UHGV virus genome: UHGV-1359486
DNA: 37,770 nucleotides
Source: a virus
Direction: 5' to 3' (one strand)
Shown here: piece after piece, positions 18,809-33,589 of the stretch
Layout of the letters: every line of letters begins with the position of its first letter
Position numbering within the stretch: position 1 is the first letter of the stretch
Made by a program: the position numbers and the translations under genes
The notes under the pieces: model-generated
Databases searched by the model: none
The model's input: the letters and a program-made list of their open reading frames with translations, nothing else
Told to the model about the DNA's origin: nothing

Positions 18809-19033
18809 CTATGCGAACAGGTCTAATGCTTCCTGTGCCTCTCTTGCTGCCTTTTGTGCTCTGGCAACAAACTGTGATTCGGTCTGGCATTTGTGGTAAG
18901 CATCTTTGAAGAGCTCAAACTTGAGCGCGTCGTCTTTAACAAACTCGATAGCGGCCTGAGCTGCGGCAGTGTCATTGCTCACCAGTCGCAGTAAGTCCAG
19001 ACGCATCTGATGTTGTGCTGTGATTTCTGTCAT
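18809..19033 (-). CDS. Hypothetical protein (74 aa; start uncertain, track ORF extends to 19117)
   Basis: ORF between lysis cassette and terminase; weak RBS. Confidence 0.35.
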   Translation of the reverse strand: MTEITAQHQMRLDLLRLVSNDTAAAQAAIEFVKDDALKFELFKDAYHKCQTESQFVARAQKAAREAQEALDLFA

Positions 19034-19231
19034 TTTTGCACCTGTAGTTTTTGAGATAAGTGTTCCGTCTCTCCGGTTGTCACGACCATGCCGCCAATGG
19101 TTGCCGTTCCCACACATGCGGATTACACATCCGTGGCTTCGTTGTTTTCGACTATCAGTGTGCGCTCGTCACGTGAGGATATGAGTCATTGCTAACACGC
19201 TATACCGCGACAACGCTGCGCAAAGTGCTGG

Positions 19232-19438
19232 TTATTTGGAGTCGTTTACGTAATGGGCTACCGTTTTACCGGCGCTGTTGATAATTTCGGCTTTATCGCC
19301 AGACTGCAATGTGAGGTCATCGCCGCAGTTATTATGGTCGGTGTAATTCAGCTTATACGCCCACGGTGACCACTGAATACCATAACCGGACTCAATGACT
19401 TCGTTACCTGATGCGGTGATTACTTTGATTGTGAACAT
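19232..19438 (-). CDS. Hypothetical protein (68 aa)
   Basis: ATG preceded by GGAG at 6 nt. Confidence 0.5.
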   Translation of the reverse strand: MFTIKVITASGNEVIESGYGIQWSPWAYKLNYTDHNNCGDDLTLQSGDKAEIINSAGKTVAHYVNDSK

Positions 19439-19582: not shown

Positions 19583-19609
19583 TAAAAAAGCCCCGCTAGT
19601 TAGCGAGGC
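19583..19609 (-). terminator. Candidate rho-independent terminator overlapping the 3' end of Rz
   Basis: Minus-strand 9-bp stem (one G-U pair) followed by UUUUUU. Confidence 0.35.
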
Positions 19610-20048
19610 ACTGAGTCTTTATGTAGTCATGGAGCCCACGAATTTGGGCATCCATTGTTTCAAGCTGCTTGCGGAGATGAAAATAATCCGGTTCAGCGTC
19701 TCTCGCCAGGGTGGCGGGTCTGCCATCATCCATGCTGGAGGTGGTATCGGTTCCGCTTTTGGGGCATTCAGCGCGGACGTACACCCGCTTGTTGCCAGAC
19801 TTAACAGCATCACGCAGGCTATCAATTTCAGTTTTGGCATTGGTTAACTCCTGCGTGTACATAGTGTCGAGTTCGTGAAGTGACTGAATGCGGGATTTGT
19901 AGCCTTTGTTGATGGCGACCTGCTCTGCAAACTGAGAGGAAAGCAGCTGATAGTTATCTTTCAAGCCACCATACAGATGCAGGAGAAGCAGCAGACTGAC
20001 AGCCAGTATTCCGCAAATGCCTAGCCATATCTTTGTTGCGGTGCTCAT
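19596..20048 (-). CDS. i-spanin (Rz-like)
   Basis: 150 aa, N-terminal TM helix then coiled-coil region; directly after endolysin. Confidence 0.8.
   Translation of the reverse strand: MSTATKIWLGICGILAVSLLLLLHLYGGLKDNYQLLSSQFAEQVAINKGYKSRIQSLHELDTMYTQELTNAKTEIDSLRDAVKSGNKRVYVRAECPKSGTDTTSSMDDGRPATLARDAEPDYFHLRKQLETMDAQIRGLHDYIKTQCLAN
19619..19840 (-). CDS. o-spanin (Rz1-like lipoprotein) embedded in the Rz gene in another frame
   Basis: Signal peptide with lipobox-like ATSGC, Pro-rich mature part; fully nested within Rz. Confidence 0.65.
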   Translation of the reverse strand: MPKLKLIACVMLLSLATSGCTSALNAPKAEPIPPPAWMMADPPPWRETLNRIIFISASSLKQWMPKFVGSMTT

Positions 20049-20049
20049 A

Positions 20050-20382
20050 TCACTTAACGCCGTTGTGTTCTAACGAGTAGTGATTGCCGTCATTGAACCT
20101 ACCGCCCCACGTACCCCCGATGGACTCCCAATATTCACCGAGTGGTTTGTGGTCACTTGATGCCGTCAGATATTTGCCATCTTTGAACAGGTTGAAATCA
20201 ACCGCCAGCCGCTGGGTATGCAGGCTGTTTTTAATTCCAGCGCCGGATTTGGCATTTAGTGCAGCCTGCTCCGGTGTTCGGTACGCCTCTGAGAACGTCA
20301 GATCATAGCCGTTGTCGTACGCGAAGATAATTAAGTCCGCAATCATGCGGGTAAACTTGCGTTGCTTTTCACCTAATGTCAT
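20050..20382 (-). CDS. Endolysin, peptidase M15-type (L-alanyl-D-glutamate/D-Ala-D-Ala peptidase family)
   Basis: 110 aa; SLHTQRLAVD (H-x6-D) and DGNHYSLEH zinc-ligand pattern; ATGA overlap with holin. Confidence 0.7.
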   Translation of the reverse strand: MTLGEKQRKFTRMIADLIIFAYDNGYDLTFSEAYRTPEQAALNAKSGAGIKNSLHTQRLAVDFNLFKDGKYLTASSDHKPLGEYWESIGGTWGGRFNDGNHYSLEHNGVK

Positions 20383-20687
20383 TTTTTACCGCCTGAGAAT
20401 TTTGACCAAAAGAAGTCCAGTGCAAAAGAACCCATAGCGCCACACATACCGGCAGCAAATACCGTGTAATAAAACGAAGCGTTGAGTTCCACAGAAAGAA
20501 GCCCACCCATCAGGCCGGAGAACCCGGAAACCATCATCTGCATGATTGCCCCCAGCCAGCTCCAGCGGTAGCCGTTGCGTTTGTTGTCAATAATGTACCG
20601 GGCTAAGCCACCGTAAAGGGATATGGCAAATATGACCCCCCATGCTGTACCGGTGACTTTCAGGTCTTTGTCATCCATCTTTGCCAT
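20379..20687 (-). CDS. Holin, three TM helices, dual-start motif MAKM
   Basis: 102 aa; three hydrophobic segments, charged C-terminus; strong RBS. Confidence 0.75.
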   Translation of the reverse strand: MAKMDDKDLKVTGTAWGVIFAISLYGGLARYIIDNKRNGYRWSWLGAIMQMMVSGFSGLMGGLLSVELNASFYYTVFAAGMCGAMGSFALDFFWSKFSGGKK

Positions 20688-20873
20688 ACCGCCCCCTTCC
20701 GGAGGATTTAGTTAATAGGGTGCCGCGCACAGTATCTCTGCGCTGATTACGTTTGTTTGTTCAGGATTCTGTGGCGGCGTGTTTGTTTATTAGTTGGATT
20801 GGATGCTGCATCGATGAATGAGTTATATTCAGCAATGCCGATTAATATCACCACCCACATAAAGCAGGTAAAA

Positions 20874-21332
20874 ATGACTGAAAATAAAGAAAGAGCGACT
20901 AAATATTATATCGAGATAGTTAAGCCAACTATCGATGAGTTTATGAATGACAAATGCAGTATTAGAAAAGGAATGCTGGCATCAATCACCATGAATCACA
21001 TAATTGATTACCTATATGACGACAGTTCAAAAAGCGATGGTTTCAGATTTTCGTCCTCTGAATGCGACGCTCTGAACACCATTAAAGATGTCTGCAATGC
21101 ATCTAAACACTGTGAGTTAACAAGAGGAAACCCATCAATAAAATCATCAGACCAAATAACACAAGATGATGTTCCAGGATTATTTTCCGCTCCGTTTGGA
21201 ACTGGTGGATTTCTTGAAGCAAGTTATGTTTTCGTTAAACTTAACGATGAAATTAATGGCGATAAATTCAAATGCTTGCCGAATATAATAAAAGAGGCCG
21301 AAGATTACTGGGATAAACGACTTCCGTCATAA
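20874..21332 (+). CDS. Moron: unknown protein antisense to the late operon (152 aa from ATG 20874; alternatives ATG 20814, TTG 20757)
   Basis: Uninterrupted ORF, AGGT 5 nt upstream of ATG, markedly AT-rich relative to flanks; no recognisable motif. Confidence 0.55.
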   Translation: MTENKERATKYYIEIVKPTIDEFMNDKCSIRKGMLASITMNHIIDYLYDDSSKSDGFRFSSSECDALNTIKDVCNASKHCELTRGNPSIKSSDQITQDDVPGLFSAPFGTGGFLEASYVFVKLNDEINGDKFKCLPNIIKEAEDYWDKRLPS

Positions 21333-21340
21333 AATCACAA

Positions 21341-21364
21341 AATAAAAAGCCCTCCGAAGAGGGC
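21341..21364 (-). terminator. tR'-like strong rho-independent terminator (hairpin shared with the end of the plus-strand moron)
   Basis: GCCCTC-CGAA-GAGGGC hairpin; minus strand followed by UUUUUAUUUU; about 165 nt downstream of PR'. Confidence 0.6.
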
Positions 21365-21509
21365 TGTTATGCATGCTTCGACACAAGGCCAGTTTCCCGC
21401 CGGTGTGCGCCGTTTACTTACTTCCTCGCTCTGCATTCTAAAAAGCCCCGCATTTGGCGAGGATTATAATTCAGGTTAAGCGACTTAAGAGTCATGTAGA
21501 TCAACTTAC

Positions 21510-21544
21510 CTGATAAGTATTGTCCATTTGGTCATTACTGTCAA
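21510..21544 (-). promoter_or_regulatory. Late promoter PR' (probable Q-utilisation region)
   Basis: Minus strand TTGACA - 17 nt - AATACT, overlapping the Q stop codon. Confidence 0.5.
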
Positions 21545-22044
21545 TAGCAAAGTTCAGTAATTTTGCGTACTTTACCCACACGTTTGCGACTGTTCATTAC
21601 ATTTCGCAGAGGTTCGTATAGCAACCACTGAGCCGCTTTGAGTTTTTCGTCAACCTCACGGCGACATGTCCGCATAGATGGAACCTTTATTTTCCCTCCT
21701 GAGCGCGTGTTCATTTTGCGTGGTTTTGCAACGCCGTGATAGTAAGATGCAATCGACAGCTTGGATGAGCCGTGAGCATAGTAACTGAGCAGTATTCCGT
21801 AAGCCTGTGTGTCAGTGGCGATAACTGAATCTACGACCTGAGAAATCAACATTCCGTCATCGTCATTGCACATTGGTCTTGTTGGGTTTTTATCCGGCTC
21901 TACAGTCTGCATGAACTTATAAATCATGTTGATCATGCGAATATCAATCCGGCCTGAATATACCCACGCACCCCACAGCTCAAGCCACTGGTTAAGCCAG
22001 TCATACTGCTCTTTGGTGAGTTCCTTTTCTCCGATATAGCTCAT
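21541..22044 (-). CDS. Late-gene antiterminator Q (P22 gp23-type)
   Basis: 167 aa; WGAW and CNDDDGMLI motifs recalled from P22-type Q; directly upstream of PR'. Confidence 0.7.
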   Translation of the reverse strand: MSYIGEKELTKEQYDWLNQWLELWGAWVYSGRIDIRMINMIYKFMQTVEPDKNPTRPMCNDDDGMLISQVVDSVIATDTQAYGILLSYYAHGSSKLSIASYYHGVAKPRKMNTRSGGKIKVPSMRTCRREVDEKLKAAQWLLYEPLRNVMNSRKRVGKVRKITELCY

Positions 22045-32787: not shown

Positions 32788-33589
32788 CCCACCAATCGCA
32801 CAGGCGGACCTGCAAAAAGCACAAGGGACCGCGGTTAAAGAAAAAACAAAAGACCAGCAGCTAATCCAGTTCATAAACCAGCCAGGCATGAAAGCTCAAC
32901 TAGCAGCCGCCCTGCCGAGGCATATAACACCGGACCGCATGATCAGGATTGTCACCACCGAGATACGGAAAACTCCATCACTGGCAACCTGTGACATGCA
33001 AAGCTTTATCGGCGCTGTTGTTCAGTGCTCGCAACTTGGCCTTGAGCCAGGTAACGCATTGGGCCACGCCTACCTCCTTCCGTTCGGCAATGGTAAAGCG
33101 GCATCAGGGCAATCAAATATTCAGTTAATTATCGGATATCGCGGCATGATCGACCTCGCCCGCCGATCCGGTCAAATTATCAGTATATCGGCCCGCACTG
33201 TGCGCGAAGGTGACAGTTTTCATTTTGAATATGGCTTAAACGAGGACCTTACACACGTACCCGGCGAAAATGACTCGGGCCCAATCACCCACGTTTATGC
33301 AGTGGCCCGCCTGAAAGAAGGTGGTGTTCAGTTTGAGGTTATGTCTTTCTCTCAGATTGAGAAGGTCCGCGATTCAAGCAAGGCCGGTAAAAATGGTCCA
33401 TGGGTATCTCACTGGGAAGAAATGGCGAAAAAGACCGTCATCCGCCGCCTGTTCAAATATCTGCCGGTATCTATCGAGATGCAGAGGGCCGTCATTCTGG
33501 ATGAAAAAGCAGAGGCCAACGTGGACCAGGAGCATGCATCTATTTTTGAAGGTGAGTACGAAACTGTATCGCCGGAATCCGCGGGGTAA
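32780..33589 (+). CDS. recT: RecT-family single-strand annealing protein
   Basis: 269 aa; LLPFG, IGYRGMIDLARRSG motifs; coupled downstream of the nuclease. Confidence 0.85.
   Translation: MSNPPIAQADLQKAQGTAVKEKTKDQQLIQFINQPGMKAQLAAALPRHITPDRMIRIVTTEIRKTPSLATCDMQSFIGAVVQCSQLGLEPGNALGHAYLLPFGNGKAASGQSNIQLIIGYRGMIDLARRSGQIISISARTVREGDSFHFEYGLNEDLTHVPGENDSGPITHVYAVARLKEGGVQFEVMSFSQIEKVRDSSKAGKNGPWVSHWEEMAKKTVIRRLFKYLPVSIEMQRAVILDEKAEANVDQEHASIFEGEYETVSPESAG

What the first reader, a model, noticed from the sequence alone, without database searches (positions are those of the whole stretch)
19596..20687. Lysis cassette: dual-start holin, M15-peptidase endolysin, embedded Rz1
The holin begins MAKM, the arrangement that gives holin/antiholin dual starts in lambda S. 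The endolysin is a 110-aa M15 metallopeptidase type, not the lysozyme I recall for P22 gene 19. The Rz1 lipoprotein frame lies wholly inside Rz. Holin and endolysin are ATGA-coupled.
Basis: partly seen in the sequence, partly recalled or inferred. Interest (0 to 1): 0.3.

Follow-up and report, generated by a model that had tools for sequence, protein, structure and literature searches.

The report
Ordinary lambdoid phage lysis cassette

Summary
The holin is 20687-20379 (102 aa, Pfam PF16083 LydA-type, starts MAKM). The endolysin is 20382-20050 (110 aa, Peptidase_M15_4, ATGA overlap with the holin stop). Rz is 20048-19596 and Rz1 is 19840-19619, wholly embedded in the +1 frame with a lipobox Cys20.

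The endolysin models confidently (pLDDT 90.8) as a LAS/M15 zinc-peptidase fold. Its closest solved structures are L-Ala-D-Glu endolysins (Ply500, LysECD7, ChiX, EndoT5). It has no N-terminal hydrophobic segment, so it needs a canonical large-hole holin. P22 gp19 is a PF00959 lysozyme, unrelated to it.

The dual-start reading gains support. Met1...Met is kept in every relative examined (MAKM, MTRM, MARM, MAKRM, MKRM, MRM, MAKHM; MAQM lacks the basic residue). Every leader also has a small hairpin pairing the Shine-Dalgarno with an upstream CCUCC-like arm, as in lambda's sdi; loops vary freely and one compensatory swap is seen.

None of this is new in kind. ST64T/PS3-type P22-like phages already carry a PF16083 dual-start holin with an M15-like lysin. 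Proteus phage Brookers has a 97% identical endolysin. Identical holins sit beside three different endolysins in public prophages. Two-product expression and bond specificity remain untested. Low interest.

The parts
21541..22044 (-). Q-like late antiterminator gene (167 aa) upstream of the cassette
   Evidence: PF06530 Phage_antitermQ E=1.2e-22; phrog_943 E=8.6e-80
21516..21544 (-). Candidate late promoter (pR'-like): TTGACA, 17-nt spacer, AATACT. It overlaps the Q stop codon.
   Evidence: Consensus scan, 10 of 12 matches. This is a position analogy with lambda pR', not a tested function.
21438..21462 (-). First intrinsic terminator downstream of the promoter (tR'-like): CCUCGCCAAAUGCGGGG followed by CUUUUU
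   Evidence: Terminator scan; sequence read
21340..21365 (-). Second intrinsic terminator: AGCCCUCUUCGGAGGGCU followed by UUUUAUUUU
   Evidence: Terminator scan
20727..20743 (-). Conserved leader hairpin of unknown role, about 40 nt upstream of the holin start
   Evidence: Six-base-pair stem in the fold. The same position in L002-L006 has a different but still self-complementary sequence.
20692..20705 (-). sdi-like hairpin CCUCC-GGAA-GGGGG that pairs the Shine-Dalgarno purine run; its 3' end lies 4 nt before AUG1
   Evidence: Local fold of -7.4 kcal/mol. An equivalent hairpin occurs in the eight other hand-picked leaders including lambda and in 29 of the 30 distinct IMG/VR leaders; the exception, L071, was anchored on an upstream in-frame ATG. 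Loops are variable, and L077/L088 show a compensatory swap. Lambda's sdi was read.
20379..20687 (-). Holin gene, 102 aa, with Met1 codon at 20687-20685 and Met4 codon at 20678-20676 (putative antiholin and holin starts)
   Evidence: PF16083 E=8e-25. Three hydrophobic segments, loop 1 net +3 and C-tail net +3. The dual-start motif is conserved in relatives.
20050..20382 (-). Endolysin, 110 aa: soluble single-domain LAS/M15 zinc peptidase with H55-x6-D62 and D98-x2-H101
   Evidence: PF13539 at 30.5 bits against a cut-off of 25. Invariant residues. AF2 pLDDT 90.8. Foldseek best match 2vo9, E=4.8e-5. Maximum hydropathy 0.74, so no SAR or signal segment. 97% identical to Brookers gp72.
19596..20048 (-). 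Rz (inner-membrane spanin), 150 aa, with an N-terminal TMD and periplasmic Cys95 and Cys147
   Evidence: PF03245 E=3e-25. 43% identical to lambda Rz, with both Cys aligned. TMD at residues 3-30.
19619..19840 (-). Rz1 (outer-membrane lipoprotein spanin), 73 aa, embedded in the +1 frame; lipobox LATSG|C20; proline-rich mature part
   Evidence: PF06085 E=8.5e-10. 50% identical to lambda Rz1. Embedded +1-frame lipobox ORFs are found in all relatives.
19590..19609 (-). Terminator-like hairpin plus U-run overlapping the Rz stop codon, at the end of the cassette
   Evidence: Eight-base-pair stem, 6 of them GC, followed by UUUUUU

Best explanation
This is a canonical lambdoid holin-endolysin-spanin lysis cassette of a P22-like temperate phage or prophage of Morganellaceae. 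It is transcribed on the minus strand as the first genes of the Q-antiterminated late operon.

Proposed mechanism:
1. RNA polymerase starting at the promoter that overlaps the end of the Q gene is terminated at two intrinsic terminators unless modified by Q (inferred from layout).
2. The holin mRNA has its Shine-Dalgarno sequence locked in a 5-bp hairpin. Two AUGs lie 4 and 13 nt downstream of it. By analogy with lambda S and P22 gene 13, ribosomes partition between them. This would give a 102-aa form carrying an extra Lys3 (antiholin-like) and a 99-aa form (the active holin) (inferred).
3. The holin is a three-TMD, N-out/C-in membrane protein of the LydA family. It accumulates and then triggers to form large, non-specific holes (inferred). 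Supporting this, the endolysin has no export signal, and the identical holin serves three unrelated endolysins in other prophages.
4. The 110-aa endolysin is translationally coupled to the holin through the ATGA overlap. It is a minimal LAS-fold zinc peptidase (H55, D62 and H101 as ligands, D98 as catalytic base). It cuts the peptide stem of peptidoglycan, most likely the L-Ala-D-Glu bond (fold shown, bond inferred).
5. Rz (inner-membrane anchored) and the embedded lipoprotein Rz1 form a two-component spanin that disrupts the outer membrane by fusion (by homology to lambda).
For: Gene calls and overlaps are.

Endolysin. 4489 homologs were found and the best-ranked ones listed are almost all 110 aa; the catalytic motif is invariant. 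The AF2 model has pLDDT 90.8. Foldseek matches Ply500, LysECD7, VanY, LysB4, ChiX and EndoT5. There is no hydrophobic N-terminus.

Holin. It is 47% identical to gp13 of ST64T, PS3 and L. Serratia phage Eta's homolog is annotated 'possible dual start motif'.

Dual start. The motif and an SD-sequestering hairpin occur in the window, 7 characterised-phage or prophage relatives and lambda. They recur in 29 of 30 distinct leaders from 80 IMG/VR loci; the exception (L071) was anchored on an upstream in-frame ATG. Loop sequences vary and L077/L088 carry a compensatory CCG/CGG to CGC/GCG swap. Control leaders in the window average -3.2 kcal/mol and 14% reach -6 or lower, against -6.1 to -12.1 for the holin leaders. 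For lambda, the S105:S107 ratio is set by a stem-loop that includes the RBS (PMC3369941), and the antiholin carries an extra positive N-terminal residue (PMC9636201). P22 genes 13 and 13' are annotated with starts 9 nt apart, the same spacing as here.

Spanins. Rz and Rz1 are 43% and 50% identical to lambda's, with Cys and lipobox conserved.

Late-operon layout.

Module swapping. The identical holin is paired with three endolysin types. The spanin pair is replaced in Morganella morganii Mm1.
Against: No expression data exist, so two holin products are not shown.

Relatives P0122 and P0123 and loci L002-L006 start MAQM, with no basic residue between the Mets. The charge-based antiholin logic cannot hold for them.

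SD spacing (4 nt to AUG1, 13 nt to AUG4) may favour Met1 alone.

The window's own hairpin is only marginally better than its shuffles (z=-1.3), and the 3' arm is constrained anyway by being the SD.

The fold search cannot distinguish an L-Ala-D-Glu endopeptidase from a VanY-like DD- or LD-carboxypeptidase or endopeptidase specificity.

The promoter and terminators are consensus matches only.
Confidence: 0.88

Rival explanations
1. The cassette is as described, but the holin gene makes one product only. Met4 would then be just a conserved residue, or Met1 a mis-called start, and the hairpin would simply throttle holin translation. There would be no antiholin, and timing would be set by holin level alone.
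For: MAQM variants lack the basic residue needed for lambda-type antiholin behaviour. The SD-AUG1 spacing of 4 nt is near-optimal while 13-16 nt to the second AUG is poor. Some database entries of the family start at the second Met, for example P0134 and P0137 with MQDKES.
Against: The second Met is retained at 1-3 residues from Met1 in all sub-clades at 43-49% identity, while the rest of the N-terminal tail diverges. A basic residue lies between the Mets in 7 of 8 motif variants. The layout of hairpin plus two AUGs matches lambda, where both starts are used despite 6 and 12 nt spacing.
Confidence: 0.3
2. It is a pinholin with a SAR endolysin: the holin makes only small depolarising holes, and the endolysin is exported by Sec and released from the membrane.
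For: Small holins of about 100 aa occur in such systems. No direct evidence for this was found here.
Against: The endolysin has no hydrophobic N-terminal segment; its maximum 17-residue hydropathy is 0.74, against 1.4 or more for the TMDs. Its N-terminus is a confidently modelled amphipathic helix. The holin has three hydrophobic segments rather than the two of pinholins. The identical holin serves three unrelated lysins.
Confidence: 0.03
3. The 110-aa M15 protein is not the endolysin. It would be a VanY-like carboxypeptidase or accessory wall-remodelling enzyme, with the true lysin encoded elsewhere.
For: The Pfam model name is D-Ala-D-Ala carboxypeptidase, and VanY and LdcB are among the structural matches.
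Against: It occupies the endolysin slot between holin and Rz, with overlapping stop and start codons. 321 phage genomes carry full-length homologs, many annotated as endolysin. The top structural matches are bona fide endolysins. ORFs flanking the cassette from 16.8 to 23.5 kb were scanned against Pfam and none hit another muralytic family; the rest of the window was not scanned.
Confidence: 0.04

Closest known systems
Lambda SRRzRz1 and P22 13-19-15-Rz1 lysis cassettes
   Same: The gene order is the same: holin, endolysin, Rz with Rz1 embedded in the +1 frame. The cassette sits downstream of Q, a late promoter and terminators. The holin starts with a dual-start motif; P22's 13 and 13' starts are 9 nt apart, as here. 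An RBS-containing hairpin lies upstream, as in lambda's sdi. Rz and Rz1 are 43% and 50% identical to lambda's.
   Different: The holin belongs to another Pfam family (PF16083, not PF05106). The endolysin is a zinc peptidase, not a transglycosylase (lambda R) or lysozyme (P22 gp19, PF00959). Rz1 lacks lambda's Cys29 and is 13 aa longer. An antisense AT-rich ORF interrupts the late leader.
ST64T / PS3 / phage L type lysis cassette of P22-like phages (gp13, gp19, gp15)
   Same: The holin is PF16083, 47% identical, with dual start MAKRM and an SD hairpin. The endolysin is an M15-like peptidase with the H-x6-D and D-x2-H motifs. Rz and Rz1 are embedded.
   Different: ST64T gp19 is 132 aa and is not alignable by BLASTP with the 110-aa enzyme. 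Its PF13539 score of 23.6 bits falls below the cut-off of 25 bits.
Proteus phage vB_PmiP_Brookers (Lederbergvirus) gp71-gp73
   Same: The endolysin is 97% identical, at 110 aa, and annotated as an M15 family peptidase. An Rz-type spanin follows it. The phage backbone is P22-like.
   Different: The Brookers holin is unrelated (16% identity), and an extra membrane protein gene precedes it.
Small globular L-Ala-D-Glu endolysins of Gram-negative phages (EndoT5 2MXZ, LysECD7 8Q2G, KP27) and Ply500 EAD (2VO9)
   Same: They share the LAS fold and the zinc-ligand motif, and are single-domain soluble lysins (for the H/D alignment to 2VO9; PMC12686013 for the 131-aa KP27 enzyme, abstract listed).
   Different: Sequence identity is only 18-24%. 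The window enzyme is 15-27 residues shorter than the free-standing enzymes among the solved chains matched (LysECD7 125, ChiX 133, EndoT5 137 residues). Bond specificity was not determined.

Membership tests
Pfam PF16083 Phage_holin_3_3 (LydA-type holins, holin superfamily III) | HMM score above the gathering threshold | tested here: met
   87.2 bits against a cut-off of 28.4, covering profile positions 2-78 of 78
Class I canonical holin (lambda S105 paradigm) | Three TMDs with N-out/C-in topology | tested here: met
   By prediction only: hydrophobic segments at about 17-34, 48-64 and 76-92; loop 1 net +3, loop 2 net -1, C-tail net +3
Class I canonical holin (lambda S105 paradigm) | Releases a soluble cytoplasmic endolysin through large non-specific holes | tested here: inconclusive
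   Indirect only: the endolysin lacks any signal or SAR segment, and the identical holin is paired with three unrelated lysins. Hole size is not testable here.
Lambda S / P22 gp13 sequence family (PF05106) | HMM match to Phage_holin_3_1 | tested here: not met
   The window holin's only Pfam hit is PF16083, whereas lambda S hits PF05106
Dual-start holin/antiholin genes | Two in-frame start codons separated by one or more Lys/Arg, ahead of TMD1 | tested here: met
   M1-A-K-M4. The motif is conserved as MTRM, MARM, MAKRM, MKRM, MRM and MAKHM in relatives; the exception is MAQM.
Dual-start holin/antiholin genes | RNA structure at the RBS partitioning initiation (lambda sdi) | tested here: met
   The structure is present and conserved; its regulatory effect was not tested
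Dual-start holin/antiholin genes | Two polypeptides made, with opposing function | not testable with these tools
   Needs toeprinting, a Western blot or start-codon mutants
Peptidase M15 / LAS zinc metallopeptidases | HMM above threshold, plus the H-x(3-6)-D and D-x-x-H zinc/catalytic motifs | tested here: met
   PF13539 at 30.5 bits against a cut-off of 25. H55, D62, D98 and H101 are invariant in 23 sequences.
Peptidase M15 / LAS zinc metallopeptidases | LAS fold | tested here: met
   AF2 pLDDT 90.8. Foldseek probability of about 1.0 to 2vo9, 8q2g, 5hnm, 5opz, 2mxz and ShhN.
L-alanyl-D-glutamate endopeptidase endolysins | Cleavage of the L-Ala-D-iGlu bond | not testable with these tools
   Only inferred, because the best structural neighbours have this activity
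Glycoside-hydrolase endolysins (P22 gp19 lysozyme, lambda R) | Match to PF00959 or another GH family | tested here: not met
   No GH Pfam hit. No BLASTP alignment to P22 gp19, which is PF00959.
Two-component spanin Rz/Rz1, embedded architecture | i-spanin with an N-terminal TMD and coiled-coil periplasmic domain (PF03245) | tested here: met
   E=3e-25. TMD at residues 3-30. 43% identical to lambda Rz, with Cys95 and Cys147 aligned to lambda's two Rz cysteines (residues 99 and 152 in the alignment).
Two-component spanin Rz/Rz1, embedded architecture | o-spanin lipoprotein gene entirely inside the i-spanin gene in the +1 frame, with a lipobox Cys and no Asp at +2 | tested here: met
   Rz1 at 19840-19619 lies inside Rz at 20048-19596. 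The lipobox is LATSG-C20, followed by T and S. PF06085 E=8.5e-10. Lipid processing itself is not testable.
Pinholin / SAR-endolysin systems | Endolysin with an N-terminal signal-anchor-release TMD | tested here: not met
   Maximum 17-residue hydropathy is 0.74; no hydrophobic N-terminus

The most novel reading that the evidence does not exclude
The dual start together with the SD-sequestering (sdi-like) hairpin may be a conserved, functional timing device across the whole enterobacterial branch of PF16083 holins. That would be either shared ancestry with lambda S within holin superfamily III or convergence on the same design. The MAQM variants would be natural 'charge-less' alleles, allowing a test of whether the extra basic residue is really what makes an antiholin.
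Probability: 0.45. Interest if true: 0.35.

Novelty: new member of a known kind. Interest (0 to 1): 0.17.

Why it matters
It matters little beyond annotation. It confirms a textbook lambdoid lysis cassette in a Morganellaceae P22-like prophage and illustrates gene-by-gene module exchange: one holin is paired with three lysins, and the spanin pair is swapped cleanly.

Two points are modestly useful. First, the 110-aa M15 enzyme is a very compact endolysin scaffold with thousands of natural variants, of possible interest for enzybiotic engineering. Second, the conserved sdi-like hairpin with its dual start offers a second, sequence-unrelated holin family in which to test the lambda model of lysis timing.

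Tried and rejected
- Megablast of the cassette against the phage and E. coli collections found nothing. The more sensitive blastn, tblastn and protein searches were needed.
- phmmer of the endolysin against PDB sequences gave no hit. A 23-sequence profile gave only a weak hit to 2VO9, E=0.21, below a spurious designed-repeat hit. The fold search was decisive instead.
- NCBIfam gave no hit for any of the four proteins.
- Folding 121 nt around the holin start showed no globally significant structure (z=+0.36). Only the local SD hairpin is meaningful.
- One consensus structure for all holin leaders could not be written, because the two clades pair the SD in different registers. No formal pair-count test was therefore run, and the covariation is reported from the per-sequence folds.
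- Rfam found nothing in the window or in the leader.
- PADLOC found nothing for the antisense ORF or the two small ORFs downstream of Rz.
- The literature search for 'sdi' returned mostly irrelevant papers. The lambda stem-loop statement was taken from PMC3369941.
- The pinholin/SAR and 'not the endolysin' readings were rejected, as set out under the rival explanations.
Full report
**Observation.** ORF listing and direct reading of the sequence confirm four genes, all on the minus strand.
- Holin: 20687-20379, 102 aa, starting MAKMDDKDLK.
- Endolysin: 20382-20050, 110 aa.
- Rz: 20048-19596, 150 aa.
- Rz1: 19840-19619, 73 aa. It starts 208 nt into Rz, so it is in the +1 frame, and it ends 23 nt before the Rz stop, so it is wholly embedded.

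The holin stop and endolysin start overlap as ATGA (+ strand 20379-20382 is tcat). The endolysin stop and Rz start are separated by one base.

**Family assignments.** Pfam gives the following:

| Protein | Pfam family | Score |
|---|---|---|
| Holin | PF16083 Phage_holin_3_3 (LydA type) | E=8e-25 |
| Endolysin | PF13539 Peptidase_M15_4 | 30.5 bits, cut-off 25 |
| Rz | PF03245 | E=3e-25 |
| Rz1 | PF06085 | E=8.5e-10 |

PHROGs agrees on all four. NCBIfam has no model for any of them.

**Genomic setting.** The window is a P22-like (Lederbergvirus-like) genome.
- The terminase, portal and coat module is 74-78% nucleotide-identical to Salmonella, Escherichia and Proteus P22-like phages.
- gp3-type small terminase, DUF2560 and NinG genes flank the cassette.
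- An exact 38-mer from the holin/endolysin junction occurs in Morganella morganii strain Mm1. That prophage is 94-96% identical on both sides of the spanin genes.
- The closest endolysin homologs are from Proteus, Providencia, Moellerella and Morganella.

Upstream on the same strand lie a Q-type antiterminator (22044-21541; PF06530, phrog_943) and a strong sigma-70 consensus match (TTGACA-17-AATACT, 21544-21516) overlapping the Q stop. Two intrinsic terminators follow at 21462-21446 and 21365-21348. This is the lambda pR'/tR' layout, inferred here from position only. Between the second terminator and the holin sits an antisense, AT-rich ORF (20871-21332, + strand). Its GC content is 36-39% against about 49% for its surroundings, and its function is unknown. 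A further terminator-like hairpin overlaps the Rz stop (19609-19590).

**Endolysin.** The word-indexed search found 4489 homologs; the best-ranked ones listed are almost all exactly 110 aa.
- In a 23-sequence alignment, E32, R35, S53, H55, D62, D98 and H101 are invariant. This gives the LAS signature H-x6-D ... D-x2-H.
- Sequence searches of the PDB were essentially blind.
- The AlphaFold model is confident (pLDDT 90.8, pTM 0.82).
- Foldseek places it in the LAS/M15 fold. The best matches are the Ply500 catalytic domain (2VO9, E=4.8e-5), LysECD7 (8Q2G), VanY (5HNM), LysB4, ChiX (5OPZ) and EndoT5 (2MXZ).
- Most of these are L-Ala-D-Glu endopeptidases, so that bond is the best guess, but it remains an inference.
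- The protein has no hydrophobic N-terminus (maximum 17-residue hydropathy 0.74). It is therefore a soluble cytoplasmic lysin that depends on a hole-forming holin.

An M15-type lysin is nevertheless not unusual in this phage group:
- Proteus phage Brookers gp72 is 97% identical.
- 321 phage genomes carry full-length homologs.
- ST64T/PS3-type gp19 is a different M15-like peptidase.

**Holin and the dual start.** Hydropathy shows three hydrophobic segments. The first loop has net charge +3 and the C-tail +3. This predicts N-out/C-in class I topology, like lambda S105. By sequence it is not a lambda S family member (PF05106) but a PF16083 protein.

Its phage relatives include the following:
- gp13 of ST64T, PS3, L and ST160, at 47% identity.
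- The holin of Serratia phage Eta, whose GenBank note already reads 'possible dual start motif'.
- Several Klebsiella prophage holins.

All examined relatives keep two Met codons close together at the N-terminus: MAKM, MTRM, MARM, MAKRM, MKRM, MRM and MAKHM. The exception is MAQM, which has no basic residue. More distant PF16083 proteins lack the motif.

Starting at Met1 adds Lys3 and changes the net charge of the N-terminal tail from -1 to 0. That is the lambda S107/S105 logic, in which the antiholin carries an extra positive residue (PMC9636201).

**An sdi-like hairpin.** Immediately upstream of AUG1 the mRNA reads CCUCC-GGAA-GGGGG-CGGU-AUG (20705-20685). The Shine-Dalgarno purines form the 3' arm of a 5-bp hairpin of -7.4 kcal/mol. 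Lambda S has the same design, CCCCUUAUUGGGGGUAAGAC-AUG-AAG-AUG. There, the stem-loop including the RBS sets the S105:S107 ratio (PMC3369941).

Evidence that the hairpin is conserved:
- The window, seven other hand-picked leaders and lambda all fold into such a hairpin, at -6.1 to -12.1 kcal/mol. The 30-nt leaders of 57 long ORFs in the window average -3.2, and 14% reach -6 or lower.
- Eighty IMG/VR loci yielded 30 distinct leaders, and 29 show the hairpin. The exception, L071, was anchored on an upstream in-frame ATG.
- In one clade the arms CCUCC/GG(A/G)GG stay fixed while the loop varies (GGAA, AACA, AGAAA, AAAAA, ACUAA).
- In the MAKRM clade the arms CACCCCG/CGG-AGGUG stay fixed while seven different loops occur.
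- L077 and L088 carry a double compensatory swap, CCG/CGG to CGC/GCG.

This pattern fits selection on structure. The caveats are as follows:
- The 3' arm is constrained anyway by being the SD.
- The window's own hairpin is only z=-1.3 against shuffles.
- No single consensus structure could be written across clades.
- SD spacing is 4 nt to AUG1 and 13 nt to AUG4, against 6 and 12 nt in lambda.

Production of two products remains an inference.

**Spanins.** Rz has an N-terminal TMD (residues 3-30). It is 43% identical to lambda Rz over the periplasmic domain, and both periplasmic cysteines are conserved: Cys95 and Cys147 align with lambda's Cys99 and Cys152. Rz1 is 50% identical to lambda Rz1. 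Its lipobox is LATSG-C20, Thr is at +2, and it has the PPPAW...PPPW proline-rich core. It lacks lambda's Cys29 and has a longer C-terminus. Embedded +1-frame lipobox ORFs of 55-73 aa are present in every relative examined.

**Mosaicism.**
- The 100% identical holin is followed in different IMG/VR prophages by three unrelated lysins: an ST64T-gp19-like enzyme, a 134-aa type as in Salmonella phage MS2 LVA, and the 110-aa M15 enzyme (L022: Q 99%, holin 100%, lysin 99%, Rz 84%).
- Holin relatives at 86% identity keep the holin-M15 pair, including the 4-nt overlap, but are followed by either Rz-type or LysB/LysC-type spanins.
- The Morganella Mm1 prophage swaps only the spanin pair.
- Brookers shares the lysin and Rz but has an unrelated holin.

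This endolysin-agnostic behaviour is what a non-specific large-hole holin would be expected to show.

**Verdict.** The cassette is a new but ordinary member of well-known families. The only mildly new point is that the lambda-style combination of dual start and RBS hairpin is conserved across this second holin family. Rfam holds no matching RNA family. Interest is low.

Noticed in passing
window 20871-21332 (+): An AT-rich 153-aa ORF (GC 36-39% against about 49% around it) lies antisense inside the late-operon leader, between the terminators downstream of the Q gene and the holin. It matches phrog_33893 (unknown function) and has no PADLOC hit. Its only homologs are hypothetical proteins of Morganella, Moellerella and Acinetobacter. 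It is a moron-like insertion that late transcription must read through in antisense.
   Followed up: partly
window 20727-20743 (-): A second small hairpin (GCGCAG-AGAUA-CUGUGC) lies about 40 nt upstream of the holin start. Relatives L002-L006 have a different but still self-complementary sequence (UCACA...UGUGA) at the same position. Its function is unknown.
   Followed up: partly
L015-L023 (IMG/VR prophages), holin at 1501-1806: Nine public viral contigs encode a holin 100% identical to the window's. Downstream they carry three unrelated endolysin types, and only L022 has the 110-aa M15 enzyme.
   Followed up: yes
L014 (Morganella morganii Mm1, NZ_VKKS01000001) 552-1680: This prophage is 94-96% identical to the window on both sides, but Rz/Rz1 are replaced exactly at the endolysin stop by an unrelated embedded spanin pair. 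That pair is a 164-aa i-spanin and an 85-aa lipoprotein with lipobox LTAC, neither with a Pfam hit.
   Followed up: partly
window 32908-33004 (-): ARAGORN calls a 97-nt tRNA-Gly(UCC), but Rfam finds no tRNA at gathering threshold anywhere in the window. It is probably a false positive.
   Followed up: partly
window 18809-19117 (-) and 19232-19438 (-): Two small ORFs lie between Rz and the small terminase gene: a DUF2560 protein (E=7e-39) and a 68-aa protein of phrog_3909. The 68-aa ORF is also present in the Morganella Mm1 prophage (L014 1693-1899). The function of both is unknown.
   Followed up: no
window 20050-20211 (-), C-terminal half of the endolysin: This 160-nt stretch is 75-79% nucleotide-identical to endolysin genes of very different phages of Aeromonas, Pseudomonas and Stenotrophomonas; further Vibrio phage matches were counted but not listed. 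That is unusually strong DNA-level conservation of the GGxWGGRFxDGNH motif region.
   Followed up: no
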